Positions 1,568-62,593 of a stretch of 64,000 bases of DNA are shown piece after piece. The notes under the pieces are model-generated. The model was not told the DNA's origin. It did no database searches and saw nothing but the letters and a program-made list of their open reading frames with translations. The translations under genes and the position numbers were made by a program. Source of the DNA: Betaproteobacteria bacterium (lineage in GTDB: Bacteria; Pseudomonadota; Gammaproteobacteria; Burkholderiales; Rhodocyclaceae); NCBI GenBank assembly GCA_020621865.1, contig JAHRYW010000013.1, positions 12,289 through 76,288 of the forward strand, written 5' to 3'. How positions within the stretch are numbered: the stretch's first letter is position 1; each line of letters opens with the position of its first letter.

Positions 1568-1609
1568 CGATTTCGGTTTTTGCCCTTTTTTGCCCTCGAC
1601 CGTAGCATT
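1568..1609 (-). repeat. Dispersed 42-bp motif copy 1 (intergenic)
   Basis: revcomp AATGCTACGGTCGAGGGCAAAAAAGGGCAAAAACCGAAATCG. Confidence 0.9.
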
Positions 1610-1753
1610 CCCGTGGAATGGCCATCTGCTGCCGGACGTTGCGTGGCAAGCAACACCGCCACAGCAAAGCGTAACATTCCATCCGAAAAGTGACGGGAAT
1701 TGGTCTAGAATCCGACAGTTAATACAATTCACCGCCCACGAGGCCGCCTTTTC

Positions 1754-2920
1754 ATGAAAACAATGACCCTGCGTATCGTACCGGCCCTGCTGCTGGTCGC
1801 TTTCTCCGGCGCCGCCTCGGCTGCCGCCTTCCAGCTTCTGGAGCAGAACGCCAGTGGCCTCGGCACCGCCTACGCCGGCTCAGCCGCCGTCGCCGACAAC
1901 GCCAGCACGGTCTTCTTCAACCCGGCCGGCATGACGCAACTGAACGGCTTCCAGCTTTCCGCCGGGGTCACCGGCGTCGGGCCGAGCTACCAGTACCGCA
2001 ACAATGCCGGCGTCGAGTCGGGTGGCGATGCCGGCGGCTGGGCTGCCGTGCCCAACGGCTACATGTCCTGGCAAATGACCAAGGACCTGTACCTTGGTTT
2101 TGGTGTTTCGGCACCCTTCGGGCTGGCTACCGAATACGACAGCACCTGGGACGGTCAGGCGCTGGCCATCAAGTCGGAAATCAAGACCATCAACTTCAAC
2201 CCCTCGGTGGCCTACCGCGTCAACGACAAGGTCTCGCTCGGTTTCGGCATCAATTACCAGACCATCGACGGTGAGTTGACCCGCAACCCCGGCGCCCTGG
2301 TCACCCTCAAGGGCGACGATGCCTCCTGGGGCTGGAACGCTGGCGCCCTGTTCACGCTGTCGCCGGCCATGCGGGTCGGCATTGCCTACCGCTCGGCGAT
2401 CAAGCACCGCCTGGAAGGCACCATTAACGGCGCCTTGCCTATCCGCGCCGATGTCGAGTTGCCGGATACCTTCACCCTGTCGGTCTGGCAACAGGTCTCT
2501 GACCGCTGGGAAGCGATGGGCGACCTCTCATTCACCCGCTGGAGCACCCTGCAGCGCTTCGACGTCTACCGTCGCGCTGACAATGTCCTTTTGCCGGGTA
2601 GCGAAGTCTTCAATTACGACGACTCCTGGCGCATCGCTTGGGGCGCGGCCTACAAGCTTAATGACGCTGCCAAGCTGAAGTTCGGCATCGCCTACGACCG
2701 CACGCCGGTACGCAATGAGTCGCGCTCTCCTCGCGTGCCGGATAACGACCGCCTGTGGCTGTCGCTCGGCGGCCAATGGAACGCCGGCCGCCATGGCAAG
2801 TTTGATCTGGGTTACTCGTATCTCTACGTCAAGGACCCCAGCATCACCCAGGCGCCGCTGAACGGCAAGTACGACGCCAGCGCCCATATCGTCGGCTTGC
2901 AGTACTCGGTGGGCTTCTAA
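1754..2920 (+). CDS. fadL: OmpP1/FadL outer-membrane long-chain fatty acid transporter
   Basis: Signal peptide, FQLLEQNASGLGTAYAG and NPAGM motifs, C-terminal Phe. Confidence 0.9.
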   Translation: MKTMTLRIVPALLLVAFSGAASAAAFQLLEQNASGLGTAYAGSAAVADNASTVFFNPAGMTQLNGFQLSAGVTGVGPSYQYRNNAGVESGGDAGGWAAVPNGYMSWQMTKDLYLGFGVSAPFGLATEYDSTWDGQALAIKSEIKTINFNPSVAYRVNDKVSLGFGINYQTIDGELTRNPGALVTLKGDDASWGWNAGALFTLSPAMRVGIAYRSAIKHRLEGTINGALPIRADVELPDTFTLSVWQQVSDRWEAMGDLSFTRWSTLQRFDVYRRADNVLLPGSEVFNYDDSWRIAWGAAYKLNDAAKLKFGIAYDRTPVRNESRSPRVPDNDRLWLSLGGQWNAGRHGKFDLGYSYLYVKDPSITQAPLNGKYDASAHIVGLQYSVGF

Positions 2921-2941
2921 TCAACCGTATCCGGGGGGATC

Positions 2942-3472
2942 GTGCCGGCGCTTGAACTGGGGGGGATGACGCTGGGCCTGCGCGAAGGGGTGATCGGCCT
3001 GATCGTGCTGGTCGCCCTCTACATGCTCTTCGTCCTGCTCCGCATGCTTCACTTGCGTCGCCGTCCTGCCGAGGCGCCGGTGCAGATTGCGCCCGTTTTG
3101 GCCGAGCGCGAGCCGATTCCTGCTGCCGAGCCGGAGGCTGAGCCTGCGATGGCCTCGGGCAGCGAACAAGGGGCTGCCCGGATGGCTGCTCCCCAGCTCG
3201 GCGAAAACCTGCTGCGGAGTGCCCTGGAGCAGGAAGTCAGCCAGCTGCGCGACGAGGTCGACGCCATCCGTGGCGAGCTGGCGGCGTTGCGTGGCGATAT
3301 GCAGCACGAACTGGCCCACCTGCGAGCCAGTCAGACGGTTTCGCCGATCTATGGCGACGCGATGCAGATGGCGGTTTCCGGTTACGATCCGGCGGCCATC
3401 GCCGAACGCTGCGGCATCGCCCGGGCCGAGGCAGAACTGGTCGTTGCGCTGGCCAAGAGTCAGGATCATTGA
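2942..3472 (+). CDS. DUF2802-like membrane-anchored protein
   Basis: N-terminal TM, coiled coil, C-terminal Y.DAMQMA...IAERCGIARAEAELV motif; start uncertain. Confidence 0.7.
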   Translation: MPALELGGMTLGLREGVIGLIVLVALYMLFVLLRMLHLRRRPAEAPVQIAPVLAEREPIPAAEPEAEPAMASGSEQGAARMAAPQLGENLLRSALEQEVSQLRDEVDAIRGELAALRGDMQHELAHLRASQTVSPIYGDAMQMAVSGYDPAAIAERCGIARAEAELVVALAKSQDH

Positions 3473-3480
3473 GGGGCAAC

Positions 3481-4260: not shown

Positions 4261-4269
4261 ACTGACCGA

Positions 4270-4524: not shown

Positions 4525-4613
4525 GGCGGGGTGCTCCGAGGATTGCGTAAGCAAATAACGCGGCGGCACCCGGCCCGGCATACGGTGCAGCCGGACTGCT
4601 TTGTAACAAATCT

Positions 4614-5388: not shown

Positions 5389-5394
5389 CGCCTG

Positions 5395-10843: not shown

Positions 10844-10885
10844 AATGCTACGGTCGGCGGCAAAAAAAGGCCAAAATCGAAATTT
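10844..10885 (+). repeat. Dispersed 42-bp motif copy 3 (intergenic, convergent genes)
   Basis: AATGCTACGGTCGGCGGCAAAAAAAGGCCAAAATCGAAATTT. Confidence 0.9.
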
Positions 10886-17244: not shown

Positions 17245-17444
17245 CGGGAACAGCCTCCTTTTTTGTCAGCGGTCGTGCCATCCTACCGAAGTGAAAGGCC
17301 AAGTTGAATAGGGAAAATGTGACGATTTGTGACCGCCATTTCTCCCTTTTGCTGAGCCCCTGAGCGACTGCGTTTTGCTGCATCGGTCAACGGAAAGCCA
17401 GTCTGGGCGGTGGTTTCCAAGGTGAGCGCCCGGGCGATCGGCGC

Positions 17445-17583
17445 TCTCGTCCGCAGCTTAAGTTGAGATAGGAAACCCGCGTATTTCGGCGTGTTTTGAA
17501 AAGTCTCGCAAATCAATTCCCTCACGGTTTCGCACGTTAAGTCGAGACTTTTACGTTTTTCCGCAACTTATCTTGAGACTTTT
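17445..17583 (+). repeat. Transposon end with spaced transposase (TnsB)-binding repeats
   Basis: ccgcagcttaagttgagata (17451), tcgcacgttaagtcgagact (17530), ccgcaacttatcttgagact (17561). Confidence 0.85.
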
Positions 17584-17588
17584 CCCCG

Positions 17589-18783
17589 CTATTTACAGCC
17601 GATCCAGTCCCGGATTGCTTTGTCAGCTTGTTCGTCCAGTACGAATTGCTCACGTAGACACAGCGAGCGAACATTGTTCGCGAGTTTCTGGGCCAATGTG
17701 GCTGCGTCGTTCGGACCTTCGTCGAATACGTGGCCGCGCATGCTCAGGCCGCGCAGGACATGATTGACGTCGGCACGGCTCACCGGCAAACCTGTCTCAC
17801 GGCAACGGTCGCGGACGCGCTTTCCCGTCTCCATCAGATGAAACGGTACTTCGGCGACATCCTTGGCAATCGATGCGATCAAGTTCCGATATTTTTCCGG
17901 TGTCAGCAGTGGAACGTCCGTCAGTTCGTGAATCTGCTTTGCGATCTTGTACAAGTTCTTGTCCGACCATTCGGCGGCAGGCGGAGGCTGCTGGGTGAGT
18001 TTGGCTACGGGTTTAGCAGGGTCGTAGGCAATACCGCCGGATTCGTTCCAGTTGAATTCGACGGGTTTTATATCCAGCGATTCGACAAACCTGCGGAAGG
18101 TGCCTTTTCCCGCCCAGTCAGCAGCAAGGGTCGGGTCGAGGCCGATCAGCACCGTCGCCAGACGTCCGCAGGGAACGGGTTGGCCTGCTTTGGCCACTTC
18201 CGCCCGGATCGCAGCGGCGACCGTGTTTGCCGGATTGATTGTTTTGCCATTGCCGCTGGCCATGTTCTGGGGCGAGGGGAGTGCGTGCCGTTGTGGATCG
18301 TGAATGGTTCCGCCGGAATCCCAACTGACGACCAGCGAGCCAAGTTTCAGCGCTTCGATGAGGGCGCGGAAGCTGCCAAACCCGGCCCAGGAAGAAGCGT
18401 CCAGACCTTCGATTCGGTTCAACAGCAAGGAAGCAATCCTGGCCAGCGATACCGGAGCCGTTGCTTCTTTGACCGCCTGCTGGATCAGTTGCAGTGCCTG
18501 TGCGCCGCACTCGGTGGCGGAAGGGCCGGCTGGCGGGATGGTTTCGGCTGGTACTGGGGGCGGGGCGTCGTCGAAATTGAGCGCCTGGCGCACGAAGTCA
18601 TCCTGGTCGATCAGCAAGTCGGCCGAGGCGCGATACGCCGCCGAAGGAAAGCCGATGGCGAGCACGGTCGTGCGCCGGTCCCAGCGCCGTAGCTTGCGCA
18701 GCACCGGGGTGAAATCAGCGTCAGCCGAAAAAACGATGAACTCGTCGTAACGGGTTTCGTGCTGCAGAAGGTCAACGATATTT
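17589..18783 (-). pseudogene. 5'-truncated NYN (PIN-like) RNase with two LOTUS/OST-HTH-like repeats
   Basis: IVDLL..YDEFIVFSADADFTPVLRKLR is the second half of an NYN domain; repeats WAGFGSFRALIEAL / WAGKGTFRRFVESL; N-terminal NYN half replaced by tnsB-like DNA. Confidence 0.7.
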
Positions 18784-19050
18784 GTTCGGGATGAGATTGA
18801 GGTCTTGGAAGTTCTGGAGTGCGTCAGAGCTGTCTGGCTTGATTGCAAGAGCTTCCGGTGATGAGAACGCGTCGATAATTTTCAGTTGCAGAGACGCTTG
18901 TGCTGACCAAAACTCCGATTCCGTCAGCGTTTTTTTTTGGCTAGTTTTCGGATTCTCGAAGTAAAGCTCTTCGGTGGAGCGGCTGTCGTATTCGAAAATC
19001 TGGCCCAGGTAGGAGATAACAAGCCCTTTTTGGAGGAAAAATGATCCCAT
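18772..19050 (-). pseudogene. N-terminal fragment of probable TnsB transposase
   Basis: RBS ggagg directly after tnsA; only 92 aa, ending at the junction with the NYN fragment; identity inferred from position. Confidence 0.55.
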
Positions 19051-19065
19051 GTCGATTCCTCCGGA

Positions 19066-20001
19066 CTAGGCGTTGTTTGGCTTAGTTGCCGCACCAGGTG
19101 CGCGATCTCGGCGCTCCCAAGATTTTCTAGGGCGGAGCTCCGCCTCTCCGAGATCACGAAGAGGCGCCGCCTTTGAAAATCCTCCAACAAAATTCCATGG
19201 GGTAAGAGGTGGACGAGTCTGTCGCCAAGCCGTCGTAACTTCCAGTCGATATTGATCTGGCGTTCCACGACCCAAAGCCAACGCTGCCAGAAGATCACCA
19301 TGCCGGGTCGAACGAAAAATGTCGCCAAGGAACAATCCTTTAAATGGTTGATCGGGGAGGCTGACCAAACTTGATTTGGTGAACTTGTAGCTCCAGTCGA
19401 AGCAAAGCCGGCGTTGGGCAATCAGTGTGTAGACTTCGGCCAACGAACAAGATGCTGCATCGCAGAGTTCAGTAACCGCCATCGTCTGCTCGCGTTGAAA
19501 TGCTTCTGCCACCCGAGCCAAGGCCTCACTGGGCAAAGGTGAGGTCAGATAACGCATCAATAGATTGGTATTGGTTCTTTGGGGCTCAGAGAACAGTTGC
19601 TCATCAACAATGAACGCAAATGCTTGCGCTGTTTTCCGAAAATGCTTGGCGATCGCGAGGTAGGTTGGGAGGTGTTCCGGATGGAAAAGAAATTCGAGCG
19701 GCTTGATTTCGATTAGTGTTTCGATATTGCCGTGTTCAACCAGGAAGTCGGCGGTGTATTGGCGTTCAACACCGTCTTGGTCGAAATAGCTTCGTGCTTG
19801 TTGGGAATAAACCCGTTTGATGTCCCTGCAGAGCAGAAGACGTGGAATCGCGAGTTTTTCGTGAGGAGACTCGTATTCTGCCGGGTAGGGGGTTAGCTCT
19901 TCAACCTGCAGGCCACCCGTGGTGCGGTGTGGCGAGACTTCAATTAACTGGCGGCTAGGGGCGTTGGGGCCCCCTAGCTTTTTAGCGCGGCGCTTCTTCA
20001 T
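19066..20001 (-). CDS. tnsA: TnsA-like heteromeric transposase endonuclease subunit
   Basis: YESPHEK...SQ...YTADFLV...IEIKP PD-(D/E)XK core; C-terminal winged helix (VYTLIAQRRLCFDW). Confidence 0.85.
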   Translation of the reverse strand: MKKRRAKKLGGPNAPSRQLIEVSPHRTTGGLQVEELTPYPAEYESPHEKLAIPRLLLCRDIKRVYSQQARSYFDQDGVERQYTADFLVEHGNIETLIEIKPLEFLFHPEHLPTYLAIAKHFRKTAQAFAFIVDEQLFSEPQRTNTNLLMRYLTSPLPSEALARVAEAFQREQTMAVTELCDAASCSLAEVYTLIAQRRLCFDWSYKFTKSSLVSLPDQPFKGLFLGDIFRSTRHGDLLAALALGRGTPDQYRLEVTTAWRQTRPPLTPWNFVGGFSKAAPLRDLGEAELRPRKSWERRDRAPGAATKPNNA

Positions 20002-20079
20002 GATTTCTCCAAGATGAAATCGTAAGCATCCAAACGAATATTTTATTCATTGGATGTAATTTTTTGGCGACAAAAATCC

Positions 20080-20108
20080 TTGACTTTGCCGATCGCCTTG
20101 GAGATACT
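20080..20108 (+). promoter_or_regulatory. Sigma70-like promoter antisense to gp16-tnsA transcription
   Basis: TTGACT-17bp-GATACT. Confidence 0.55.
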
Positions 20109-20186
20109 TCACGTGTCTGATTTAATTTTTTCCGTGGCTAACGGGCAGAGCCGGATGAACCGAAAGGTGAGTCCGGTATTTTTTTG

Positions 20187-20451
20187 TTACATGGTTTCCT
20201 CCTCTCGATTGAGCCCGGCCAGAATCTGACTCAGCGTTTGAACGTCGGTCAGTTGTCCAGCTTTCAGGCCAAGTGCGACGGCAATCTTGTGGCTTTGGCC
20301 ACGCAAGCAGCGCCGCTTCCCTTCAAGGACTTGATAGACGAGACCGCACGAGAAGCGGTTTTCGCGAGCCCATTCCGCAATGGATATGCCGGTGCCTTCT
20401 ATCAAAGAGCGGCATTCTTCAGGGCTGCGGGTGGGGGGGGCGCGTACTCAT
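20187..20451 (-). CDS. BcepMu gp16-family phage-like DNA-binding protein, frameshifted in a C8 tract
   Basis: TRSPEECRSLIEGTGISIAEWAR...LRGQSHKIAVALGLK; ATG 20451 is one base out of frame across the C8 run (G8 at 20433-20440 on +). Confidence 0.75.
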
Positions 20452-20529
20452 AGGATCGATTGTATTCAAACGAGTACACGCTAACACCCTGTGTGGAAAC
20501 TGTGCAACATATTTTCTATAATCCCTGAC

Positions 20530-20982
20530 ATGCCTACACAAAACGAAACATTTCTGCCTGGGTTTGGTGAGCGTCTCAAGGAAGAGCGAAAGCGCTTGGC
20601 GCTAAACCAAGATGAGTTCGCCGAGCGCGCTGGCGTAAAGCGTCTTGCCCAACTCCAGTACGAAAAAGAAGCTCGTGAGCCAAGAACGTCGTACTTGACG
20701 GCCATCGGAGCGATGGGCGTCAGTCTTTCCTACGTGATTTTCGGGAAGAGGCCGCCGGAGTCCGCGCTTGGGCCAGAGGCAATCCGACGGATTGAGAAGA
20801 AGATCTTCGACCTCCTCGAAGCCTACGTTGCGGAGCAATGCGGAGGCTATTTGAGTTCCGATGGTCGTTATGTCTTATTCGAGGTGATGCGCTCGCATTG
20901 CATCCAGGCTGCAAGCAAAGGGCTTGATGTCGAGAGCAACTTGGCAGCGTTTTTCCCAAAGAGGGTCGAGGGCAATGGATAG
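20530..20982 (+). CDS. XRE/Cro-cI family repressor
   Basis: FGERLKEERKRLALNQDEFAERAGV...YEK...P..YL HTH; divergent from the gp16-like gene. Confidence 0.85.
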   Translation: MPTQNETFLPGFGERLKEERKRLALNQDEFAERAGVKRLAQLQYEKEAREPRTSYLTAIGAMGVSLSYVIFGKRPPESALGPEAIRRIEKKIFDLLEAYVAEQCGGYLSSDGRYVLFEVMRSHCIQAASKGLDVESNLAAFFPKRVEGNG

Positions 20983-21571
20983 GAATAAAACGTACGATCG
21001 CTCTGATGAGCATGTGATGCGAGCTTTAAGTCGGATCAGGGAAGCGTTTGAAAACGGCTCTCATGCTAGCGAAGATGAGGCGCTCGGGATTCTGCGAGAG
21101 AAGCTGTTCGAGTTTCGGCCGGGTGAAGCGTCTGAAAAAGCTCATGGACCAAGTGCTGAGACAGCTTATCTTGGTAAGCCCGTGAGTAGTGATAATCGTG
21201 TTGAAGCGGTTATTCGCTGGCTGAGCGATACGAAGGGGTTCGCGCCAAAGGAAATTGAACGCATGCGGCGTATCGGGATCTTTGAGGAAACCACAGATGG
21301 ACGTGTGGCTGTGCGTGAGCAACCGTTGCAAGAGGCTTGGGCATCTGCACTTATTGCCGGTGTTGCCTTGCTTACTGGTGCCTGGATTGCCTGGGTTTGG
21401 TTTGGGTCGGAAGGTAATCTGACCGTGATTGCAGCCTCATTTTCGGTCGGGAGTTTGTTTGGGCTTATTGTAGGAAAGGCACTCGATAAATCATTCCGAT
21501 TCGCCAAACTTCGCTCAAGAGTGTTGGAGGTGGCTCCTCGTTTTGAGGATGGTATGGTGGTTCGCCTTTAG
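20975..21571 (+). CDS. Hypothetical membrane protein (2 C-terminal TM helices)
   Basis: Overlaps repressor stop; hydrophobic pair WASALIAGVALL.../VIAASFSVGSLFGLIV. Confidence 0.7.
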   Translation: MDRNKTYDRSDEHVMRALSRIREAFENGSHASEDEALGILREKLFEFRPGEASEKAHGPSAETAYLGKPVSSDNRVEAVIRWLSDTKGFAPKEIERMRRIGIFEETTDGRVAVREQPLQEAWASALIAGVALLTGAWIAWVWFGSEGNLTVIAASFSVGSLFGLIVGKALDKSFRFAKLRSRVLEVAPRFEDGMVVRL

Positions 21572-22283
21572 GCCGGATGGCGGGATTTCGGCCAAAGCAG
21601 CCTCAAATAAGCATAGCGCCTTAAGTCCGCTATGTGGTTAAGAGCGGCCGCACTCTGTCTATGAAGTCTGAAGCGACTCATAGTCTTAAGTGATGAGATG
21701 GCCATTTATTAGCCTTTTTGCCTGCAGGGACAGCAATCACCTACCCCGGCTCAGGGGGGGGCGCCCATACCGTTAACAAAGCCGTCTCATGAAGACAGTC
21801 TAGGTAAGTCTGAACCAGATAGACTCAAGCATGTCACAACCGAAACCGAAAAAAGCCCTACTACTGGGTCCGAGATCGGGCTCTTTAGTGTTTTCTCTTC
21901 TTGACAAGGACTTATCTAGCGGCCATGATCCAAAAGTCATGGTTTTTCCATGTTGACGGAACTTGGTTTGTGTGGTATTCGGCAGCTAGGTTTTGGGCGC
22001 CTCTTGCTCTTGTATACCCTGTGACGGAATTGAATCAAGACGCATGGAAATTCTGCGTAAGCCTCGACACTCTAATGGCCAACACGTATGTTAAAGCTTA
22101 GTAAAGACTTCGCGACCCGGTTATATACTGTGGCAGCATTGCCCACCGATCAGCGGAAAGATCTGATTGCTAATCTAGATAAAATTCCATATGGATTTGA
22201 CTTCGAGGAAGGGGTAAGTGCCGCGATTAGTGCCAGCGGTATCGACAAGTCAAATTCGGAAAATTTGGCTAGGGCTATTATTA

Positions 22284-23101
22284 GGGCCTGTTCACAGTAG
22301 CTGATTTGTGTTTACATCCTGGAATTTGGATGTTGAACATGGATCGGCGAATGTTGAGCGATACCCAATGGTTTCGAATTGCTGAGTTGTTACCGGGTAA
22401 GCCGACGGATAAAGGTGGGCGGGCTGTCGATAACCGACGCTTTGTCGAGGCCGTTCTGTACCTTGCTCGCACCGGATCTCCCTGGCGAGATTTACCCAAA
22501 GAGTTGGGTAACTGGCACTCGGTATATGTCCGGTTTGCGCGCTGGGAAGAGTACGGCGTTTGGCATCGCGTCGCCGAGGCTCTCCAGGGCGATGCAGACT
22601 TGGAAGAGCTATTCATTGATGCCACGATTGTCCGTGCCCACCAGCATGCGGCCGGCGCACCCAAAAAAACGGTAGCGATCAAGCGATCGGTCGCTCGCGG
22701 GGCGGACTGACCACCAAGGTTCATGCTTGTGTCGATGCTCTGGGCAATCCGGTTCGTCTGATCCTGACGGCCGGCCAAGTGGCCGATGTCACGCAAGGGG
22801 CTGCCTTGGTTGAGGCAATCCCGACCGGCGCTGTCATCGCCGACAAAGGCTACGACAGCGATGCCTTGGTCGACATCATTGAGGCCTCCGGTGCCGAGGC
22901 GATCATCCCACCTCGAAGCAATCGCAACGCCCAACGCAAAGTCGACTGGCACCGCTACAAGGCACGAAACCTCGTCGAGCGATTCTTCAATCGCCTCAAG
23001 CAGTTCCGGCGTATCGCAACCCGATACGACAAACTTGCCAATCGCTTCAACGCCTTCCTGCATCTCGCCTGTGCCTATATCTGGTTACTGTGAACACGCC
23101 C
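22284..23101 (+). mobile_element. IS5-family insertion sequence (IS427-like), 818 bp
   Basis: 16-bp IRs gggcctgttcacagta / tactgtgaacacgccc (1 mismatch); TA duplication at 22282-83 and 23102-03. Confidence 0.92.
22330..23093 (+). CDS. IS5 transposase, two ORFs joined by -1 frameshift
   Basis: RTGSPWRDLP, IDATIVRAHQHAAG, A7 slip site 22663-22669, ADKGYD, RNLVERFFNRLKQFRRIATRYDK. Confidence 0.9.
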
Positions 23102-23566
23102 TAGCCTTCATTATCTTCACGGAAATGCAGGGCTAGATCAGGCACAATTTGTCGAAGAACTGCTGGCAGCTATTATTGAAGCACAGCCAGAAAAGGATAT
23201 ACAGGATAATAAGGGAAATCTAGAAGCAGCCCTATTAGAATTCTTGGGTACGGCACCGTTGCGCGTAAGTGCAAAAGCAGCAACCCTGCTTTTTGACGAA
23301 GAACGAGGCTTTTCAAATGCCAGAGTTATAACGGATGTTCGACCTGTATTCGGCGACGATATATCTTCTCCCGATATCTCTGCGGCGTTTATTATTCATT
23401 CTCTGCGCATCTCATACCGTGGGCGGAGTGAAAATAGTGAATTCTTCGTAAGTATGAGTACCAAGGATTTGAGGGACTTACGAAAAGTCATCGATCGGGC
23501 TCTCGATAAAGCGGAGGGTCTCGAACACGTAATGTCGTCACTTACGTCTCACGTTATTGATCCAAA

Positions 23567-24556
23567 ATGAGTGCACTGGCAAGGGATGTGGACTTTTGCG
23601 AGATCCCAGAATCTCGTGGGCGAACTATTGAGTGCGCAGTAGGTGGAGCGGTTTCCAAGATTCGTAATGAGTATGAGATCACTCTGTTAGAGGCGGGGCT
23701 GGTTAAGGGGCGATTCTTTACGGAAAATCCTGAGAAATACGGACCTACTGCCTTTCGCACTTATCAGATAGTTGAAGAAATTCATGACGGCAGTCCATTG
23801 CTTGAAAAGCATTGGTACGAACTGGCAAATCAATTTGGCTCCTTTGTCGGCTTCACAGCCTCTCCTTTTTCCACTTGCTTCAGAGGCTTAAGGAACTTGA
23901 TTGTGGGCGGTCCCAGGGTGGGAGGCTCTCCGAGAGAGGCGGATGTTGTATTCCGGTTGTCATCGGATAAATTCAATGAACTCAAACTTTTCACAGTTAA
24001 GTCGGTAGAAGCTCGACAACAGCCGATAAATGAATTTCGTCCATCTAAAGAGTTAGTGGAGCAAGTTGTTTTATCCCGCAAGCGACTCGTTGACGAGCGG
24101 TTACGGGTTCTGGACATGTTACGAAAGGATTTGAGCTCGACGGATTTTTCTGAGGCTGAGAACCTTCTGTCTTACGCTGCTAATTCCAATGTTGAACTGC
24201 AAGATGATGTGGATAATTTTATTGAGGAGCAAGTTCGTGCACTCATTGAAACTATCGGCAGGGTTAGTCTAAAGGGGGCTCGTGGAAAGTTTTTTTTCCT
24301 AACACTTGAGTCCGGCTCAAAGTTCTTGCCATGGGTTGAGAATGCCTTGTTGTCGCCTTTTAATTTGACAGCTGAATTCATGGTGCCGTTTCTTGAATAT
24401 CTGCTGCGAGACATCAAACCGGTTGCGGCATCAGGCACATTTCGGACCGCTCATGCGCGATTGGTGATTCATGACAAAGAGCTAGTTGTCGAGAGATTGG
24501 AAAGAAAAGCAGCCACAATTTTTGGCAAGGTCAATAGAAAACAGAGGGTTGGATAA
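23567..24556 (+). CDS. Hypothetical protein (329 aa), low-GC cargo
   Basis: ATGA overlap with upstream gene; no recognised motif. Confidence 0.7.
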   Translation: MSALARDVDFCEIPESRGRTIECAVGGAVSKIRNEYEITLLEAGLVKGRFFTENPEKYGPTAFRTYQIVEEIHDGSPLLEKHWYELANQFGSFVGFTASPFSTCFRGLRNLIVGGPRVGGSPREADVVFRLSSDKFNELKLFTVKSVEARQQPINEFRPSKELVEQVVLSRKRLVDERLRVLDMLRKDLSSTDFSEAENLLSYAANSNVELQDDVDNFIEEQVRALIETIGRVSLKGARGKFFFLTLESGSKFLPWVENALLSPFNLTAEFMVPFLEYLLRDIKPVAASGTFRTAHARLVIHDKELVVERLERKAATIFGKVNRKQRVG

Positions 24557-24575
24557 GGGTTGGGAGAGCATAGGG

Positions 24576-25613
24576 TTGCCAACGTTTAATCTCCTGCACC
24601 TGTCTGATCTGCACTTTGCTGTCGAACCGGAGAGGGCTAATCCGTATTTAGAACGCCGTATAGCAGAAGGTGTGCTTGGCTTTAAAAATCCTTTTTTGCC
24701 GAATACCTTCTGCCCACAGAAGGCTGTCCTGCTTGCATCAGCAATAGAGGATATCAAGAATGATATTCATGCTATCCTCATTACGGGCGATCTTGCTACA
24801 ACGGGAATGCAACCCGATCTGGATAGCGCAAAAAATTGGATTGCAGGTTCCGCATCCCATAAATATGTACCTCACCAATTTGGCGGATCGTCTACTGTCA
24901 CTTGTCTTGGTGATTTGGCTGGTACTTTGATTCTCATGCCAGGTAATCATGACCGCTACCAAGGTGCAGCAAACGATCCTGGCTCGGCTGTTTTTGAAAA
25001 CGTATTTGGCACGCACTGGGATTTGGGCCGCGGAAATGTGATGCAGCCGGTGAATCCGCGCATTCGCAGAGCAGATGTTCGGAGCGAGAATGAGGCTCTA
25101 ATTATTCTTTGTGCTGACTTTTCATTGATTCAGAAAATTGATGCAACTGACTCTCTAGTCAGTTATATGGGTCAAGGAAAGGCCTATAAGAATATTGTCG
25201 ATGCGCTAGTTGCTGAAACGCGTACTTGTCGTGAAACTGACCAAAATGCTTGTATTGTTTGGGCAACCCATTTTCCTCCTCAGTTTAAACATGACACAGT
25301 GAACGTTGGCCCTGAACTTGCCTTGATTAATGATGACGTCTTATTAGATGCCGCTAGCAAAGAGAGTATAAAAATAATATTCTCTGGCCATACTCATGTC
25401 TCAAGTGTTTATAGGGCCTTCAGGGATGTCTATGTGGTATGTGCGGGGACACCTACTTCCTATGGAAGAAACGAGATACAGCATTCGTTTAATGCTGTGG
25501 TGTTGACTACAGCAAGAAATAAACTGGCTACTGTAAGTGTCATGCGCTATCTCTGGGATAAAAAAATGGCAGTGTTTGAGCCTGATGGCACGGAGATTGA
25601 GATTCTGTTGTAG
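24576..25613 (+). CDS. Calcineurin-like metallophosphoesterase
   Basis: HLSDLHF, ITGDL, PGNHD, THFP, SGHTH motifs; probable TTG start after gggag. Confidence 0.88.
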   Translation: MPTFNLLHLSDLHFAVEPERANPYLERRIAEGVLGFKNPFLPNTFCPQKAVLLASAIEDIKNDIHAILITGDLATTGMQPDLDSAKNWIAGSASHKYVPHQFGGSSTVTCLGDLAGTLILMPGNHDRYQGAANDPGSAVFENVFGTHWDLGRGNVMQPVNPRIRRADVRSENEALIILCADFSLIQKIDATDSLVSYMGQGKAYKNIVDALVAETRTCRETDQNACIVWATHFPPQFKHDTVNVGPELALINDDVLLDAASKESIKIIFSGHTHVSSVYRAFRDVYVVCAGTPTSYGRNEIQHSFNAVVLTTARNKLATVSVMRYLWDKKMAVFEPDGTEIEILL

Positions 25614-26179
25614 GGGAAGGTTATTGTATTTCATGCCAAAGGATTAGTTTGGCCTTGTATAAATAACTTCCTCAATTTGTCGGTGCTCATGATGCTGACC
25701 TCCTTGGTTCCAGCTGGTCTGAAAATCCCATAGCAGATCACATTATTACAAGCTTTGTTTGGAGCAACGGAGAAATAACCAACTGTCGAGGATAGGGCTG
25801 TATTTCGGCCTGTGTCACATCTACATGCTGGTAATAGTGCCCGCTCATTGGACGGCAGAGCCGACCGATGCCAGCGAAAAGCTCAAGGTCCGTTTAGGGC
25901 CGGGTGCCGTCCTACACGGCAGAGGAAAGCAGATCTTCGTCACCAAGCTGCCCTCAGGGACTGCTGACCGGCAGATACCGGGCGCTCATGCGGCACTGTT
26001 GTATGTCCGCAAAGGCCGAGATTCTGCCTGATTGAGTGCCATTCTTGATTGGGCTCTAGTCGGTTCGAAAAGCGGGCCTTCCCAAACGAGTTCGCAAAAC
26101 TGAAGTTTCCTGATTTGCGTGATTCTGCGGCCCTCAGCAGTTGAGAGCCCTTGGAAACCATTGTGGCACCTATGTTTGC

Positions 26180-26226
26180 TATCTCGACCTAAGCTGCGAA
26201 AGTCTCAACTTAAGCTGCGGACGAGA
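26180..26226 (-). repeat. Transposon end with tandem transposase-binding repeats
   Basis: revcomp TCTCGT-ccgcagcttaagttgagact-ttcgcagcttaggtcgagata. Confidence 0.85.
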
Positions 26227-32600: not shown

Positions 32601-32642
32601 GATTTTCGATTTCGGCCGTTTTTTGCCGCCGACCGTAGCATT
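32601..32642 (-). repeat. Dispersed 42-bp motif copy 5 (intergenic)
   Basis: revcomp AATGCTACGGTCGGCGGCAAAAAACGGCCGAAATCGAAAATC. Confidence 0.9.
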
Positions 32643-35121: not shown

Positions 35122-35540
35122 GAAATCTGGTTTTTGCCCTTTTTTTGCTGCCGACCGTAGCATTCGGCGAAGACGCGCGCCAACTGGCGACCTTGCCGCC
35201 GCCAGCACAGGAAGCACTGCGCGAGGAAATGCGCGACAACCTCGTGGCGCTCAATGAAATCCTGTCGCTGATGGCCGCCGGCAAGGTCAGCGAGGCTGGC
35301 GAGGTGGCCGAAAGCAAGCTCGGCCGCTCGGCCATGGGCAAGCACCGTAGCAAGCCGATGGATGCCCGGCCCGGTCCGCACATGCCGCCGGCCATGCACG
35401 GCCTGGGCATGGACGGACACCAGGCGGTCAGCGAGTTCGCCGCCGTCGCCAAGACCGGCGACCGCGACAAGGCGCTGGCCCTGTTGCCCAACCTGACCTC
35501 GGGCTGTGTCGCCTGCCATTTTTCCTACCGAATCCGATGA
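35118..35540 (+). CDS. Periplasmic class II (cytochrome c'-like) monoheme cytochrome
   Basis: Signal peptide [17 protein letters not shown]; C-terminal CVACH..YR; ATGA overlaps with ubiA and ubiD. Confidence 0.85.
35123..35164 (-). repeat. Dispersed 42-bp motif copy 6 (encodes cytochrome signal peptide)
   Basis: revcomp AATGCTACGGTCGGCAGCAAAAAAAGGGCAAAAACCAGATTT. Confidence 0.88.
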
Positions 35541-40318: not shown

Positions 40319-41038
40319 TTACTGAGTGTCCGAAGCTGGTTTGCTGGCGAGGTATTTTTGCAGCATGGCCAGCGATCGGCTGTAGCTGTGCCTGATCTGC
40401 GCTTCATCGTAGCGGTGCTCGGTGCCCACCGGGCAGGCCTGGCGGGCCTGGCAGCCGTAGGCGCAGTCCGACCCCGCTTGCAGGCGATGGCCGGCGCAAC
40501 GCGGCAGCGAAAACTGGCCGTCGGCCATGGCCTCGGCCGGGCAGGCGGTGATGCAGGGCTGATCCGGGCAGGTCAAACAGGGATTGCTACGGTGAGCGGC
40601 AAAAAATGGCCAAAATCGGGAATTTGCCAGCACGACCGCGCGATAGGCAAACCAGCTGCCCCATTCGCCGTCGATGCCGACCATGAACGGCGAGGCATGG
40701 TGCCAGCCGGCCAGCTTGCCGAGCGCCTGCAGGCCGACCGGGGTTTCGCCCGGATAGACGATGCGAAAGCGGACGCCAGGCAGGCAATCGGCAAACCAGC
40801 GGCCAACGGTCTGCTGGCAATAATCGTCGATCGGATGCTCGCCACCAATGCCGCTGGCCTGCACGCATTCCCACAGCCGCCGGCCGCCGTGACCGATCAT
40901 GATCAGCTGGTCGAAGCCGGCCGTGTCGCCGAGCGTGGCGCGCAGCTCGTCGGGCAGGGCGCTTAGCTCGAAGACATGCTGGCGGTTGAGGCCGGCCGCA
41001 TCGAGGAAATCGGCCGGGAAGGGCGAGCGCTCACTCAT
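40319..41038 (-). CDS. QueG-like Fe-S cluster protein
   Basis: HPIDD, GSWFAYRA, CLTCPDQPCITACP...C...C...CQAR.ACP. Confidence 0.7.
   Translation of the reverse strand: MSERSPFPADFLDAAGLNRQHVFELSALPDELRATLGDTAGFDQLIMIGHGGRRLWECVQASGIGGEHPIDDYCQQTVGRWFADCLPGVRFRIVYPGETPVGLQALGKLAGWHHASPFMVGIDGEWGSWFAYRAVVLANSRFWPFFAAHRSNPCLTCPDQPCITACPAEAMADGQFSLPRCAGHRLQAGSDCAYGCQARQACPVGTEHRYDEAQIRHSYSRSLAMLQKYLASKPASDTQ
40583..40624 (+). repeat. Dispersed 42-bp motif copy 7 (inside Fe-S gene)
   Basis: ATTGCTACGGTGAGCGGCAAAAAATGGCCAAAATCGGGAATT; 2 core mismatches. Confidence 0.82.
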
Positions 41039-42470
41039 TTTCGAGCACCGGCGCCTTCTCGCCGATGCGGCGCTGGGCGACCCAGACGAGCAGGGCATCG
41101 ATGGCTGCGCTGCCGGCCTGGGCGCGCGGGTGGTTGATCAGGAAAATCACCGTGTAGCGCCGCCCTAGGGCGTCGAGCGCGTAGCCCGCGGCGGTCTTGA
41201 CGCCATCCAGCGTGCCGGTCTTGATGTGGGCGCGGCCGGTCGCCTCCGAGCCGTTCAGGCGCTTCTTCATCGTCCCGTCGATGCCGACGATCGGCATGCT
41301 GGAGACGAACTCCGGCATCACCGGGTTCTTCCAGGCGTCGAGCAGCAGGTGGTTGAGGCTGTCGGCGCTGATCCGCTCGCTGCGCGACAGTCCCGAGCCG
41401 TTGTCGAGCACCAGTTCGTTGAAGCGCAGATTGCGTGCGGCCAGCCAGTCGGTGACCCGCTGCCGGGCGCGCTCGGCGGTGGCCGGGGCGGAGTCGTTGC
41501 CGATGGTCAGGAAGACCTGGCGGGCCATCACATTGTTGCTGAATTTGTTGATGTCGCGCACCGCATCGGCTAGCGGCGCCGATTCGTGGCGGGCGAGCAG
41601 GCTGGCGCCGACCGGCACGCTGCCGTCGCGCACCTGCCCGGCCAGACTGCCGCCGAGTTCCTTCCAAAGCGCGCGGATCAGGCCGCCGGCCTGGGCATCG
41701 GCTGGCAGCGGCGACAGGTTCAGCGTCTTCTCGCCGCACAGCGCCGGGTAAGTGCCGGTGAATTCGAGCCTGTTGCCGTCGTTTTCCGGAATCAGGCGGA
41801 TATTGATCGCGTCCTTCCAGTTGCTGCCGCACTCGCCGTTGCCGGCCCGCAACTGGTTGTCGACGCGCAGGCCCTCGCTCGGCGTTTCCATCAGCAGGCG
41901 CGGTTTGCCGTTGTCCGGCAGCAGCGTGAAGCGCAGGGCGCGGAAATTGAGCAGCAGGCCGTCCGGGCCGACGTTGTAGGGGCGCATCGGCTTGTCGTCG
42001 AAGGCGCCGGGGTCGAAGGCCGGGACGTTGAACACTGTGCGGTCGAGCACGATGTCGCCGCCGATCTGCTGAATGCCGCGCACGCGCAAGTGGCGCAGCA
42101 GCGACCACAGGTGTTCGATGGCGAAGCGCGGGTCGCCGCTGCCGCGCAAATACAAATTGCCCGGCAAAATGCCATTGACCGTAGCATTCTCGGTCCACGC
42201 CGTGGTTTTCCAGGTGTAGGCGGGGCCCAACAGGTCGAGCGCGGCATAGGTGGTGACCAGCTTCATCACCGAGGCCGGGTTCATCGCCTGCGTTGCGTTG
42301 TGGGCGACCAGCGGCGCGGGCGCATCGACCGGCTGGACGACGATGGCGACGCTGGCGGCGGGAATCTGCGCGGCCTTCAGTGCCTTCAGGACAGTTGGCG
42401 GCAGGCCGTCGGCCCGGACCGACAGGCAGGCGAGGGCAAAGGCGAGAGCGGCAAGGAGCTTGGCGGGCAT
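41031..42470 (-). CDS. dacB: D-Ala-D-Ala carboxypeptidase/endopeptidase PBP4
   Basis: PASVMK (SxxK), SNN, KTGTL motifs. Confidence 0.93.
   Translation of the reverse strand: MPAKLLAALAFALACLSVRADGLPPTVLKALKAAQIPAASVAIVVQPVDAPAPLVAHNATQAMNPASVMKLVTTYAALDLLGPAYTWKTTAWTENATVNGILPGNLYLRGSGDPRFAIEHLWSLLRHLRVRGIQQIGGDIVLDRTVFNVPAFDPGAFDDKPMRPYNVGPDGLLLNFRALRFTLLPDNGKPRLLMETPSEGLRVDNQLRAGNGECGSNWKDAINIRLIPENDGNRLEFTGTYPALCGEKTLNLSPLPADAQAGGLIRALWKELGGSLAGQVRDGSVPVGASLLARHESAPLADAVRDINKFSNNVMARQVFLTIGNDSAPATAERARQRVTDWLAARNLRFNELVLDNGSGLSRSERISADSLNHLLLDAWKNPVMPEFVSSMPIVGIDGTMKKRLNGSEATGRAHIKTGTLDGVKTAAGYALDALGRRYTVIFLINHPRAQAGSAAIDALLVWVAQRRIGEKAPVLENE
42147..42188 (-). repeat. Dispersed 42-bp motif copy 8 (inside dacB)
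   Basis: revcomp AATGCTACGGTCAATGGCATTTTGCCGGGCAATTTGTATTTG; exact core, W tracts in register. Confidence 0.75.
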
Positions 42471-49194: not shown

Positions 49195-49236
49195 GTTTTT
49201 GAATTTTGGCCATTTTTTCGGCCTGACCGTAGCATT
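49195..49236 (-). repeat. Dispersed 42-bp motif copy 9 (abuts terminator)
   Basis: revcomp AATGCTACGGTCAGGCCGAAAAAATGGCCAAAATTCAAAAAC. Confidence 0.9.
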
Positions 49237-55273: not shown

Positions 55274-55304
55274 ACGGCCAAAATTTCGATTTTGGCCGTT
55301 TTTT
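55274..55304 (+). terminator. Terminator built partly from motif copy 10
   Basis: acggccaaaat-TTCG-attttggccgt then T5. Confidence 0.75.
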
Positions 55305-55322
55305 CGGGCTTACCGTAGCATT
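55281..55322 (-). repeat. Dispersed 42-bp motif copy 10
   Basis: revcomp AATGCTACGGTAAGCCCGAAAAAACGGCCAAAATCGAAATTT; 1 core mismatch. Confidence 0.88.
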
Positions 55323-55986: not shown

Positions 55987-57762
55987 TTATTTCTTGCGCG
56001 GCGGCGGCACGTCGGTGCAGGTGCCGTGGGCCACTTCGGCCGCCATGCCGACCGTTTCGCCGAGCGTCGGGTGCGGGTGGATGGTCTTGCCGATATCGAC
56101 CGCGTCGCAGCCCATCTCGATGGCCAGGCAGACCTCGCCGATCATGTCGCCGGCGTTGGGGCCGACGATGGCGCCGCCGATCACCCGATGCGTTTCGGCA
56201 TCGAAGATCAGCTTGGTGAAACCGTACTCGGCGCCGTTGGCGATGGCGCGGCCGGAAGCGGCCCACGGGAATTTCGAGGCTTCGATCTTGCGGCCTTCCT
56301 GCTTGGCCTGCTCCTCGGTGTAGCCGACCCATGCCACTTCCGGATGGGTGTAGGCGACGCCGGGGATCACCTGGGCATCGAAGGCGGCCTTGTGGCCGGC
56401 TGCGACTTCCGCCGCGACGTGGGCCTCATGCACCGCCTTGTGGGCCAGCATCGGGTTGCCGACCAGATCGCCGATGGCGAAGATGTGCGGCACGTTGGTC
56501 CGCATCTGGGCATCAACGTTGATGAAACCGCGGTCGGTCACCGCAACGCCCGCCTTCTCGGCGCCGATCTTCTTGCCGTTCGGCGCGCGGCCGGCGGCCT
56601 GCAGGATCATGTCGTACTTGACCGGCTCGCTCGGCGCGCCTTCGCCCTCGAACTTGACGTAAAGGCCATCATCCTTGGCCTCGACGGCGACCGTCTTGGT
56701 CTTCAGCATGACCTTGTCGAAGCGGTGCAGGTTCTGCTTTTCCCAGACCTTGACGGCATCGCGGTCGGGGCCCTGCATCAGGCCGTCCATCATTTCGACG
56801 ACATCGACGCGGGCGCCGAGGGTCGAATAGACGGTGGCCATTTCCAGGCCGATGATGCCTCCGCCGATGACCAGCATCTTCTCGGGAACGAAGCGCAGTT
56901 CCAGCGCTCCGGTCGAATCGACGATGCGCGGGTCCTTCGGGATGAAGGGCAGATGCACGGCGGCCGAGCCAGCGGCGATGATGCACTTCTGGAACTTGAT
57001 GACCTTCTTGGCGCCGGTCTTGTCCTGGGCGCTGCCGTCGGTGACCTCGACCTCGATGTGATGCGGATCGAGGAAGGAGCCGTAGCCGCGCACGACCTCG
57101 ACCTTGCGGCCCTTGGCCATGCCGGCCAGGCCGCCGGTCAGCTTGCCGACGACCTTGTCCTTGTGGGCGCGCAGCTTGTCGATATCGACTTGCGGCGCTG
57201 CAAAAGTGACGCCGAGATCGGATGCGTGCTGGGCTTCTTCCATGACCGCGGCGACGTGCAGCAGCGCCTTGGACGGAATGCAGCCGACGTTCAGGCAGAC
57301 GCCGCCGAGCGTCGCATAACGCTCGACGATGACCGTCTTCATGCCGAGGTCGGCCGAACGGAAGGCGGCCGAATAGCCGCCGGGGCCGGCGCCGAGGACG
57401 AGCATGTCGCACTCGATGTCGGCGCCGCCGCCGTGGCTGGCGGCGACCGGAGCAGCCACCGGTGCCGCCGGAGCGGATTCGGTTTTTGCCTCTTTTTCCG
57501 GGCTGACCGTAGCATTGGCTGCTCCGGCTTCAACCTTGATCAGCACGGCGCCCTCGCTGACGCGGGAACCGAGTTGGATCAGTACTTCCTTGACCGTGCC
57601 GGCAACGGTGCTCGGCACATCCATGGTCGCCTTGTCCGATTCCAGCGTGGCGATGGCGTCATCGATCTTGATGCTGTCGCCAACCTTGACGAACAGGTCG
57701 ATGACCGGCACGTCGGAAAAATCGCCGATATCGGGGACTTTGACTTCAACCAGATTGCTCAT
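55987..57762 (-). CDS. lpdA: Dihydrolipoyl dehydrogenase with N-terminal lipoyl domain
   Basis: ESDKAT lipoyl site, GAGPGG, CLNVGC, HPHPTLGE. Confidence 0.96.
   Translation of the reverse strand: MSNLVEVKVPDIGDFSDVPVIDLFVKVGDSIKIDDAIATLESDKATMDVPSTVAGTVKEVLIQLGSRVSEGAVLIKVEAGAANATVSPEKEAKTESAPAAPVAAPVAASHGGGADIECDMLVLGAGPGGYSAAFRSADLGMKTVIVERYATLGGVCLNVGCIPSKALLHVAAVMEEAQHASDLGVTFAAPQVDIDKLRAHKDKVVGKLTGGLAGMAKGRKVEVVRGYGSFLDPHHIEVEVTDGSAQDKTGAKKVIKFQKCIIAAGSAAVHLPFIPKDPRIVDSTGALELRFVPEKMLVIGGGIIGLEMATVYSTLGARVDVVEMMDGLMQGPDRDAVKVWEKQNLHRFDKVMLKTKTVAVEAKDDGLYVKFEGEGAPSEPVKYDMILQAAGRAPNGKKIGAEKAGVAVTDRGFINVDAQMRTNVPHIFAIGDLVGNPMLAHKAVHEAHVAAEVAAGHKAAFDAQVIPGVAYTHPEVAWVGYTEEQAKQEGRKIEASKFPWAASGRAIANGAEYGFTKLIFDAETHRVIGGAIVGPNAGDMIGEVCLAIEMGCDAVDIGKTIHPHPTLGETVGMAAEVAHGTCTDVPPPRKK
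57475..57516 (-). repeat. Dispersed 42-bp motif copy 11 (lpdA linker)
   Basis: revcomp AATGCTACGGTCAGCCCGGAAAAAGAGGCAAAAACCGAATCC. Confidence 0.85.
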
Positions 57763-59409: not shown

Positions 59410-59422
59410 GTTGTCTCTCCCC

Positions 59423-62107: not shown

Positions 62108-62296
62108 GGTTTGTCTCCTACGTTGGTTTTCGTTCTGTTTTACCTGGTGAGTAAAACAACTGTAGCTGGTAACGGGTCGGTTCGCGAGCCCGTACTTTCC
62201 CTAGTTCGTGTTCCGCATTGTAAAAACAAAATTCGTATCGTGCAATACGGGTAAACGCGTACCGGGGGTTTGAGGGTAAAAAAACGGGGGAGTTTT

Positions 62297-62593
62297 TTAG
62301 AGCGTGGCCCAGCGGGCCAGCGTGCTGCCGTAGAAGGCGGTGGCGATCAGGGCCAGCGGGGCGAGGGCGACGAAGACCTTGAGCACCCGGGCGATGAAGG
62401 GATGGGCGACATGCGCCTCGATGAAGCTGCGGGCGACCAGGGAGCCCTTGGCCCAGATGATCGCGGCAACCAGCAAGGGCAGCCAGGGCGCGTCACGGAA
62501 CCAGGTGTTGAGGCCGAGTCCGGCCAGGGTCAGGGCGACCAGGGCCAGCCATGCTACGGTCAGGCCGAAAAATTGGTCATTTTTGGAATTCAT
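62297..62593 (-). CDS. Cytochrome oxidase subunit IV-like (NorF-like) membrane protein
   Basis: 3 TM, K..LV...FIE motif; coupled to upstream subunit III-like gene. Confidence 0.7.
   Translation of the reverse strand: MNSKNDQFFGLTVAWLALVALTLAGLGLNTWFRDAPWLPLLVAAIIWAKGSLVARSFIEAHVAHPFIARVLKVFVALAPLALIATAFYGSTLARWATL
62550..62591 (+). repeat. Dispersed 42-bp motif copy 12 (N-terminus of NorF-like gene)
   Basis: CATGCTACGGTCAGGCCGAAAAATTGGTCATTTTTGGAATTC; 1 core mismatch. Confidence 0.82.

What the first reader, a model, noticed from the sequence alone, without database searches (positions are those of the whole stretch)
1568..62591. Dispersed 42-bp motif with fixed 12-bp core and helically phased A/T tracts: candidate new DNA-uptake signal sequence (or chromosome-binding site)
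Seen: 12 copies starting at 1568, 6876, 10844, 28756, 32601, 35123, 40583, 42147, 49195, 55281, 57475 and 62550. Consensus is AATGCTACGGTC-N6-W5..7-N4..6-W4..5-N2..3-W3..6. Eight cores are exact; chance expectation for a given 12-mer in 128 kb of both strands is about 0.01. Copies lie in both orientations, have near-fixed spacing with variable spacers, and lack terminal IRs or target duplications. Six are inside CDSs. I saw none in the 8.8-kb foreign transposon. Established: Pasteurellaceae uptake signal sequences are a short core (AAGTGCGGT) followed by phased AT tracts, and USS/Neisseria DUS accumulate by point mutation in genes and terminators and are depleted in foreign DNA. Inference: a self-DNA recognition system for natural transformation in a lineage where I know of none. 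The alternative is a site for an unknown nucleoid or segregation protein.
Basis: partly seen in the sequence, partly recalled or inferred. Interest (0 to 1): 0.92.

Follow-up and report, generated by a model that had tools for sequence, protein, structure and literature searches.

The report
Methylation-linked DNA uptake signal in Azonexus
This Azonexus-type genome carries over 400 evenly spread copies of a 42-base DNA signal whose variants in related bacteria either keep or strictly avoid a predicted DNA-methylation site, so it likely marks the cell's own DNA for uptake, a system so far described in only two other bacterial families.

Summary
Observation confirmed: all 12 sites are real. The core is the genome's commonest 12-mer (312 exact; 436 matrix sites, control 0). 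Sites show no strand polarity, avoid each other within 1 kb (6 gaps vs 59.5 expected), are thin in low-GC islands, and align without gaps to motif-free orthologues (47 of 54), so they arose in place. The scan noted this motif before in other Azonexus genomes (e1-4292828, e1-4243436). New here: it is a family of dialects in two genera of one family, tied to the palindrome GTNNAC. Most Azonexus and two genomes of genus g202 keep GTNNAC in almost every copy; this genome's dialect excludes it (5 of 436, 62 expected); the g202 genome in which the family's orphan adenine methyltransferase was not found uses a GTNNAC-free core (0 of 74). That enzyme is co-linear with H. pylori M.HpyAIX (GTNNAC). Best reading (0.6): a USS-like uptake signal read by a methylation-sensitive receptor. 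Uptake, methylation and the receptor are untested; comEC is broken in this strain; no pilin tracks the motif.

The parts
1568..1609 (-). motif copy, exact core, intergenic upstream of the FadL-family gene
   Evidence: 51.5 bits
6876..6917 (-). motif copy inside recG (5395-7434 +), one core mismatch; same site carries the GTNNAC dialect in most motif-rich relatives
10844..10885 (+). motif copy, exact core, intergenic between convergent genes
   Evidence: 67.6 bits
28756..28797 (+). motif copy, exact core, intergenic
32601..32642 (-). motif copy, exact core, intergenic
35123..35164 (-). motif copy, exact core, in the start of a 140-codon ORF between ubiA and ubiD
40583..40624 (+). motif copy with two core mismatches inside a 239-codon ORF; orthologous site in G087 carries the GTNNAC dialect
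42147..42188 (-). motif copy inside the D-Ala-D-Ala carboxypeptidase (S13) gene; ungapped against G054, G065, G087
49195..49236 (-). motif copy, exact core, intergenic after the sodium:solute symporter gene
55281..55322 (-). motif copy, one core mismatch, intergenic between convergent ppk2 and thioesterase genes
57475..57516 (-). motif copy in the lipoyl-domain linker of lpdA (gapped against relatives)
62550..62591 (+). motif copy, one core mismatch, in a 98-codon ORF
17300..26200 (.). low-GC island (46-59% GC) without any copy; serves as the local negative control (ends approximate)

Best explanation
The 42-base word is likely a self-DNA uptake signal for natural transformation that has accumulated by point mutation plus biased uptake, and it is likely read by an unidentified, methylation-sensitive receptor. 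Shown: a family of dialects sharing Y-Y-A-C-G and A/T tracts starting at position 19, in Azonexus and in genus g202; even spacing; no polarity; in-place origin in tolerant protein segments; strict keeping or strict avoidance of GTNNAC at positions 10-15. A second copy within one DNA fragment adds no uptake, which would explain the roughly 1-kb exclusion zone.
For: 312 exact / 436 matrix sites, control 0. Gaps <1 kb 6 of 419 vs 59.5 expected, minimum 42 in 1000 simulations; g(d) 0-0.18 below 1 kb, about 1 beyond 3 kb. 160 leading vs 187 lagging of 347 sites scored; both strands mixed in closed G087. 0.27 sites per 10 kb below 55% GC vs 1.9-2.8 above 63%. 47 of 54 in-gene comparisons with motif-free G054, G065, G017 ungapped; 13 of 18 orthologous sites in G087 carry G087's own dialect. 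GTNNAC in 83 of 83 G087 sites (A14, C15 = 1.00), 99 of 99 listed G062 sites, 23 of 28 and 12 of 15 loosely defined g202 sites; 5 of 436 here vs 62 expected, 1 of 49 listed in G084; 0 of 74 in G552, where the methyltransferase was not found. Enzyme in 122 of 129 genus and 21 of 21 family genomes, co-linear with M.HpyAIX orthologues that methylate 97-100% of GTNNAC (PMC3983042 Table 1 and Fig S4C). comEA, dprA-, comM-, pilT-like and minor pilin genes present.
Against: No uptake or methylation data. No receptor: PF16732 and PF12019 pilins occur in 84 and 79 of 87 genomes whatever the motif count and are only 30-48% identical between motif-rich genomes; ComEA does not follow dialect. comEC matches 117 of 129 genomes including motif-free ones and is interrupted twice in this genome. 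The methyltransferase is just as present in motif-free Azonexus and its recognition region does not differ between dialect groups. No inverted pairs here (0 gaps <250 bp), against 23% of USS within 100 bp in H. influenzae (PMC7811141). Density 0.15 per kb is below the 0.8-0.9 per kb of USS/DUS (PMC2817400). Genome-wide GTNNAC depletion in Azonexus depends on the null (lowest of 16 dyad frames; rank 34-82 of 256). Enzyme loss with core change is one event in a 97% complete genome. Motif-rich and motif-poor genomes are interleaved on an rpoBC tree with weak backbone support, so the order of gain and loss is open.
Confidence: 0.6

Rival explanations
1. The word is a binding site for a cytoplasmic, methylation-sensitive chromosome protein (nucleoid organiser, SeqA- or GcrA-like reader of the housekeeping methyltransferase), kept by direct selection.
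For: Dyad CGGT-nn-ACCG in the common dialect and A/T tracts without TA steps on one helical face suit a DNA-bending dimer; sharp spacing; link to a family-wide housekeeping methyltransferase; works without competence, which fits the broken comEC.
Against: Counts run from 0 to about 490 per genome within one genus by the same pattern, about 50 of 129 having 5 or fewer, with no substitute dialect in 400 kb each of G054, G065, G017. Not concentrated at origin or terminus. Commonest between convergent genes (69 in 99 kb) rather than promoter regions (29 in 98 kb divergent). Thin in conserved operons and islands.
Confidence: 0.2
2. The drive comes from another DNA-transfer or recombination step: a packaging start site of a gene transfer agent or phage, a recombination hot spot after entry, or methyl-directed gene conversion as proposed for HIP1.
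For: Any biased transfer gives the same in-place origin, even spacing and dialect turnover. Methylation link resembles HIP1 (PMC13756078, passages).
Against: One match in 2.9 million viral contigs for one pattern (weak, host coverage unknown). No polarity, unlike Chi. Exclusion distance near 1 kb is short for capsid loads of 4.4-14 kb (PMC12378983). I did not search for GTA genes.
Confidence: 0.15
3. It is a small mobile or inserted repeat (MITE, REP, Rickettsia palindromic element type) spread by copying.
For: Three relatives carry an 18-bp in-frame addition of consensus-like tract sequence at the recG site; some intergenic alignments to G054 show gaps; 7 of 54 in-gene comparisons have gaps.
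Against: 47 of 54 in-gene sites ungapped; bases that deviate from consensus match the motif-free orthologue at 123 of 200 positions; 431 of 436 copies distinct, no target duplication; dialect replaced at the same orthologous position; no Rfam match.
Confidence: 0.04

Closest known systems
Pasteurellaceae uptake signal sequence (USS; Hin and Apl types)
   Same: Short core plus downstream A/T tracts; hundreds of copies, both orientations, more even than random, reading-frame bias, point-mutation origin, thin in new DNA, clade dialects (PMC2817400, PMC7811141, PMC12616744 passages). g202 genomes also show overlapping inverted pairs.
   Different: Different core (only CGGT in common), first tract starts 8 bases after the core T, total 42 bp; no close pairs in this genome; lower density; embedded methylation palindrome kept or excluded by dialect; receptor and uptake untested.
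Neisseriaceae DNA uptake sequence (DUS) and ComP
   Same: Dialects with a conserved inner core in a betaproteobacterial family; a PF16732 pilin is present.
   Different: DUS has no A/T tracts (PMC12616744); the PF16732 hit here is the PilE-position pilin found in 84 of 87 genomes regardless of motif.
Campylobacter jejuni methylation-dependent uptake (CtsM)
   Same: A conserved methyltransferase site acts as the self mark for uptake (PMC8468864 passages).
   Different: There the methylated short site alone is the signal; here the site sits in a 42-bp word and one dialect excludes it.
Cyanobacterial HIP1
   Same: Abundant, quasi-periodic, contains methyltransferase sites, raises transformation in a methylation-dependent way (PMC13756078 passages).
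   Different: HIP1 is an 8-bp palindrome across a phylum; this word is long, asymmetric and patchy within a genus.

Membership tests
USS/DUS uptake sequences | Short asymmetric motif in hundreds of copies far above chance | tested here: met
   312 exact, 436 matrix sites, control 0
USS/DUS uptake sequences | Both orientations, no replichore polarity or region confinement | tested here: met
   140/172 strands; 160/187 leading/lagging; closed G087 plus-strand hits 17, 28, 22 and about 18 per Mb by my count of a partial listing
USS/DUS uptake sequences | More evenly spaced than random | tested here: met
   6 vs 59.5 gaps under 1 kb
USS/DUS uptake sequences | Origin by point mutation, not insertion | tested here: met
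   47 of 54 ungapped; exception at recG in 3 of 23 genomes
USS/DUS uptake sequences | Under-represented in genes, frame-biased, thin in newly acquired DNA | tested here: met
   191 of 436 in genes that cover 83%; frames 81/50/29/21/10/0; 0.27 vs 1.9-2.8 per 10 kb
USS/DUS uptake sequences | Clade dialects around a conserved inner core | tested here: met
   Four forms in two genera
USS/DUS uptake sequences | Frequent inverted pairs acting as terminators | tested here: not met
   0 gaps under 250 bp in this genome; pairs do occur in g202
USS/DUS uptake sequences | Sequence identity with a described USS or DUS core | tested here: not met
   Cores quoted in PMC2817400 share only CGGT with this word
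USS/DUS uptake sequences | Competence machinery and a specificity pilin (ComP, ComN/PpdA) | tested here: inconclusive
   Genes present but comEC interrupted here; no pilin tracks the motif
USS/DUS uptake sequences | Preferential uptake of motif-bearing DNA | not testable with these tools
   Needs an uptake assay
Methylation-dependent uptake (CtsM type) | Conserved orphan methyltransferase whose site lies in the signal | tested here: inconclusive
   Enzyme conserved; GTNNAC specificity predicted from co-linearity with M.HpyAIX, not measured; this genome's dialect excludes the site
Methylation-dependent uptake (CtsM type) | Uptake depends on the methyl mark | not testable with these tools
   Needs methylated vs unmethylated substrates
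MITE/REP/inserted palindromic elements | Target duplication, near-identical copies, insertion relative to orthologues | tested here: not met
KOPS/Chi/matS/parS chromosome signals | Strand polarity or clustering at origin or terminus | tested here: not met
HIP1 | Short perfect palindrome | tested here: not met
   42-bp asymmetric word

The most novel reading that the evidence does not exclude
A third family of sequence-specific DNA uptake signals, spanning two genera of Rhodocyclaceae, in which the receptor reads sequence and adenine methylation together, and dialects arose by flipping the methyl rule: required in most lineages, forbidden in this clade, abandoned where the methyltransferase was lost.
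Probability: 0.4. Interest if true: 0.93.

Novelty: new variant of a known kind. Interest (0 to 1): 0.82.

Why it matters
A 2025 paper still names Neisseriaceae and Pasteurellaceae as the only families known to pick out their own DNA by a short motif (PMC12616744, introduction). A third system, in environmental denitrifying and phosphate-accumulating bacteria, with natural gain/loss and dialect switches among close relatives, would make the origin and turnover of uptake specificity directly testable. The link to a housekeeping methyltransferase would join the two known self-recognition logics (sequence motif, methyl mark) and gives sharp predictions: opposite methylation preferences in sister clades. 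It could also supply a transformation handle for Azonexus/Dechloromonas genetics.

Tried and rejected
Literature: the core 12-mer appears only in two unrelated papers (listing); 'uptake sequence' + Dechloromonas gave 0; Azonexus + natural transformation gave 3 unrelated listings; a broader uptake-survey query gave 0; no Rhodocyclaceae methylome found (listings; Blow et al. PMC4752239 supplements). Maughan 2010 and Mell & Redfield 2014 were not held; most subscription papers and bioRxiv supplements are outside the library, so absence from print is not shown. Receptor hunt failed: PilE/ComP and FimT families, second GspH hits are MSHA or type II secretion loci, ComEA. HincII-type nuclease not found, but the control was silent too; PF01555 and PF02086 methylases do not track dialect. 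My first reading that the motif overrides protein conservation (48% in-site vs 83% outside) was dropped: motif-free pairs are as divergent there (48-53%), so sites sit in tolerant segments. Naming the methyltransferase through databases gave only generic names; the Atlas look-up used a stored homologue and returned ~380-aa Campylobacterota clusters. tRNA adjacency: 3 of 30. Read laying on four metagenome runs showed only that other copies pile on the motif. The tract-anchored control is symmetric and uninformative; only raw counts were used. The GCTA-anchored survey undercounted other dialects, and the GTNNAC pattern missed G552's dialect, so further dialects may hide in genomes scored as motif-free. 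No structure or complex prediction was run.

Full report
OBSERVATION. In the 2.90-Mb, 75% complete genome the core occurs 312 times exactly, 140 forward and 172 reverse, on 16 of 17 contigs, and is the most frequent real 12-mer. A 43-position matrix finds 436 sites at 25 bits or more and none in the reversed genome. The profile is R-AATGCTACGGTC-R-G-C-S-S-S, then A/T at 19-24, 30-34 and 37-41. Tracts avoid TA steps (7 of 436 in tract 2). The genome is Azonexus/Dechloromonas by inference: genomes with the same motif are titled Azonexus, Dechloromonas or Ferribacterium, and a Dechloromonas aromatica protein is 88% identical to one of its genes.

DISTRIBUTION. Sites repel each other: 6 of 419 gaps are under 1 kb against 59.5 expected, lowest 42 in 1000 simulations; the pair density is 0-0.18 of random below 1 kb and about 1 beyond 3 kb. 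There are no inverted pairs here. There is no polarity (160 leading, 187 lagging of the 347 sites in skewed windows), and in closed genome G087 both strands mix over the first 1.3 Mb and plus-strand hits run evenly past the midpoint (partial listing). Density falls to 0.27 per 10 kb below 55% GC against 1.9-2.8 above 63%; the longest gaps are islands and conserved operons. With my own crude gene calls, 191 sites are in genes, in frames 81/50/29/21/10/0, 58 overlap gene ends, and intergenic sites are densest between convergent genes.

ORIGIN. For in-gene sites with orthologues in 400-kb stretches of three motif-free relatives, 47 of 54 comparisons have no gap. Where this genome departs from consensus, the motif-free orthologue has the same base at 123 of 200 positions, so the word was built on the existing coding sequence. 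The segments are tolerant: motif-free pairs share only 48-53% of residues there against 86-88% outside. No target duplications; 431 of 436 copies are distinct. One exception: 3 of 23 recG genes carry an 18-bp in-frame addition at the site.

RANGE AND DIALECTS. A looser pattern gives 0 to about 490 matches per genome across 129 genus genomes, 24 with 150 or more and about 50 with 5 or fewer by my count; 299 other genomes of the order are at control level. Rich and poor genomes are interleaved on an rpoB+rpoC tree of 23 genomes whose backbone support is 34-83, so gain versus loss is not settled; no substitute dialect was seen in G054, G065 or G017. Orthologous sites switch dialect: 13 of 18 sites shared with G087 read CCACGGTCAACCGG there. 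In G087 positions A14 and C15 are invariant in 83 of 83 sites while 12-13 vary; 99 of 99 listed G062 sites have GTNNAC, as do 37 of 37 sites from 16 named records. This genome excludes it: 5 of 436 against 62 expected from the column frequencies; A14 is followed by C in 5 of 90 sites but G14 in 259 of 305 (p 1e-45). G084 has 1 of 49 listed, and two named records have 1 of 20 and 0 of 20 (they may be among the handles already counted). The escapes are single changes that destroy the palindrome. A family-wide search of 201 genomes found a second genus, g202 (1.8 Mb, 33-44% GC): G490 684 and G599 853 matches (controls 100, 149), but G552 only 10 (control 138). G490 and G599 use the same CCACG-GTNNAC core with long A/T tracts, often as overlapping inverted pairs. 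G552 has its own dense dialect, TTTTCCACGAGA plus tracts in the same register, 73 copies in 60 kb, many paired at 38-39 bp, 0 of 74 with GTNNAC.

THE METHYLTRANSFERASE. An orphan gamma-class adenine methyltransferase (389 aa, between glnS and pyrF, G000 C9:178193-179362) is in 122 of 129 genus genomes and 21 of 21 family genomes, and in G490 and G599, but was not found in G552, 97% complete. It is co-linear with H. pylori M.HpyAIX orthologues printed in PMC3983042 Fig S4C: 180 of 280 positions identical in nine blocks counted by hand, including the recognition region; three of those five orthologues methylate 97-100% of GTNNAC (Table 1 passage), while HP0910 of strain 26695 was inactive (PMC3936762 passages). 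Specificity is therefore predicted, not measured. Against a simple story: the enzyme is also in motif-free Azonexus, its recognition region is the same in both dialect groups, and background GTNNAC is only mildly depleted in Azonexus (0.76-0.92; lowest of 16 dyad frames under another null). That last point matters: this genome has not purged GTNNAC overall, only inside the signal, which fits a reader blocked by the methyl group better than a nuclease threat.

COMPETENCE. comEA with a long Pro/Ala tail, dprA-, comM-, recA-, pilT-like genes and one pilE-fimT-pilVWX-pilY1 operon are present (several named from short motifs and recall). comEC is in 117 of 129 genus genomes and all three g202 genomes, but here it is split by two low-GC inserts, one with a recombinase-like gene, so this strain probably cannot transform now. 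Mobile elements are known to break competence genes (PMC12378983 passages). No candidate receptor follows the motif.

MECHANISM. Hundreds of sites inside genes, rewritten to a new dialect at the same positions, limited to tolerant segments and excluded from each other's neighbourhood, call for a drive acting on DNA fragments; biased uptake is the one such process known to give this pattern (PMC2817400, PMC7811141 passages), and a second nearby USS adds no uptake (PMC7811141). I put uptake with a methylation-sensitive reader at 0.6, a cytoplasmic chromosome-binding site at 0.2, another transfer or recombination drive at 0.15, a mobile repeat at 0.04.

COMPARISON AND NOVELTY. It works like the Pasteurellaceae USS but is not a member by sequence and lacks terminator pairs in this genome; uptake is untested. 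It shares the methyl logic of C. jejuni CtsM (PMC8468864 passages) and HIP1 (PMC13756078 passages). My ten paper searches found no description. Papers seen: PMC12616744 abstract and introduction; PMC2817400, PMC7811141, PMC3936762, PMC12700378, PMC8468864, PMC13756078, PMC8919816, PMC12378983 passages; PMC3983042 passages and supplements; PMC4752239 supplement rows. Earlier scan notes reported the motif in other Azonexus genomes; look-ups for the methylation link and the g202 dialects returned nothing on them. Verdict: new variant of a known kind, interest 0.82.

Noticed in passing
G000 C11:199748-206760 (outside the window); L213-L214 (G093): comEC is interrupted twice by low-GC inserts; G093's comEC is split by 32 kb that starts with a large serine recombinase (PF00239, PF07508, PF13408) resembling the one here; G003 is split by 34 kb, and about ten more genomes have short comEC frames starting at two recurring positions. 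Suggests elements that target comEC in this genus.
   Followed up: partly
L398-L400 (G552), L401 (G490), L364-L394 (G599, G490): Genus g202, small AT-rich genomes of the same family, carries related signals at about 0.4 to over 1 per kb with inverted pairs; G552 also strongly avoids GCNNGC, GTNNAC and CCNNGG.
   Followed up: partly
L137-L138 (G054 C1:290-316 kb); G007 and G018 listings: Motif-poor genomes hold their few copies in clusters and mostly in the common dialect, as if blocks were imported from motif-rich relatives.
   Followed up: partly
window 6876-6917 and L186, L188, L190: G063, G019 and G003 have a six-codon addition in recG that supplies a near-perfect tract half of the motif.
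   Followed up: partly
tree (L303-L322): Motif-rich genomes tend to have longer terminal branches in rpoBC DNA (0.06-0.18) than motif-poor ones (0.03-0.08); may be a composition artefact.
   Followed up: no
L193, L210-L212: The minor pilin locus comes in two gene orders and is only 30-48% identical between close relatives.
   Followed up: partly
L292 (G000 C12:37455-38171): ComEA carries a long Pro/Ala/Lys-rich C-terminal tail; G054 also has a short ComEA.
   Followed up: no
window 17300-26200: Low-GC island with mostly unassigned ORFs, a weak TnsA-N hit (19066-20001) and a metallophosphoesterase (24486-25613).
   Followed up: partly
L197, L199, L201: In three relatives the motif forms the first codons of an MSHA minor pilin gene; copies also lie inside comEC and inside the methyltransferase gene of G000.
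   Followed up: no
L133-L152 (G054): A different repeat around GGATTCCCGC...GCGGGAATGAC occurs about 14 times in 400 kb of motif-poor G054.
   Followed up: no
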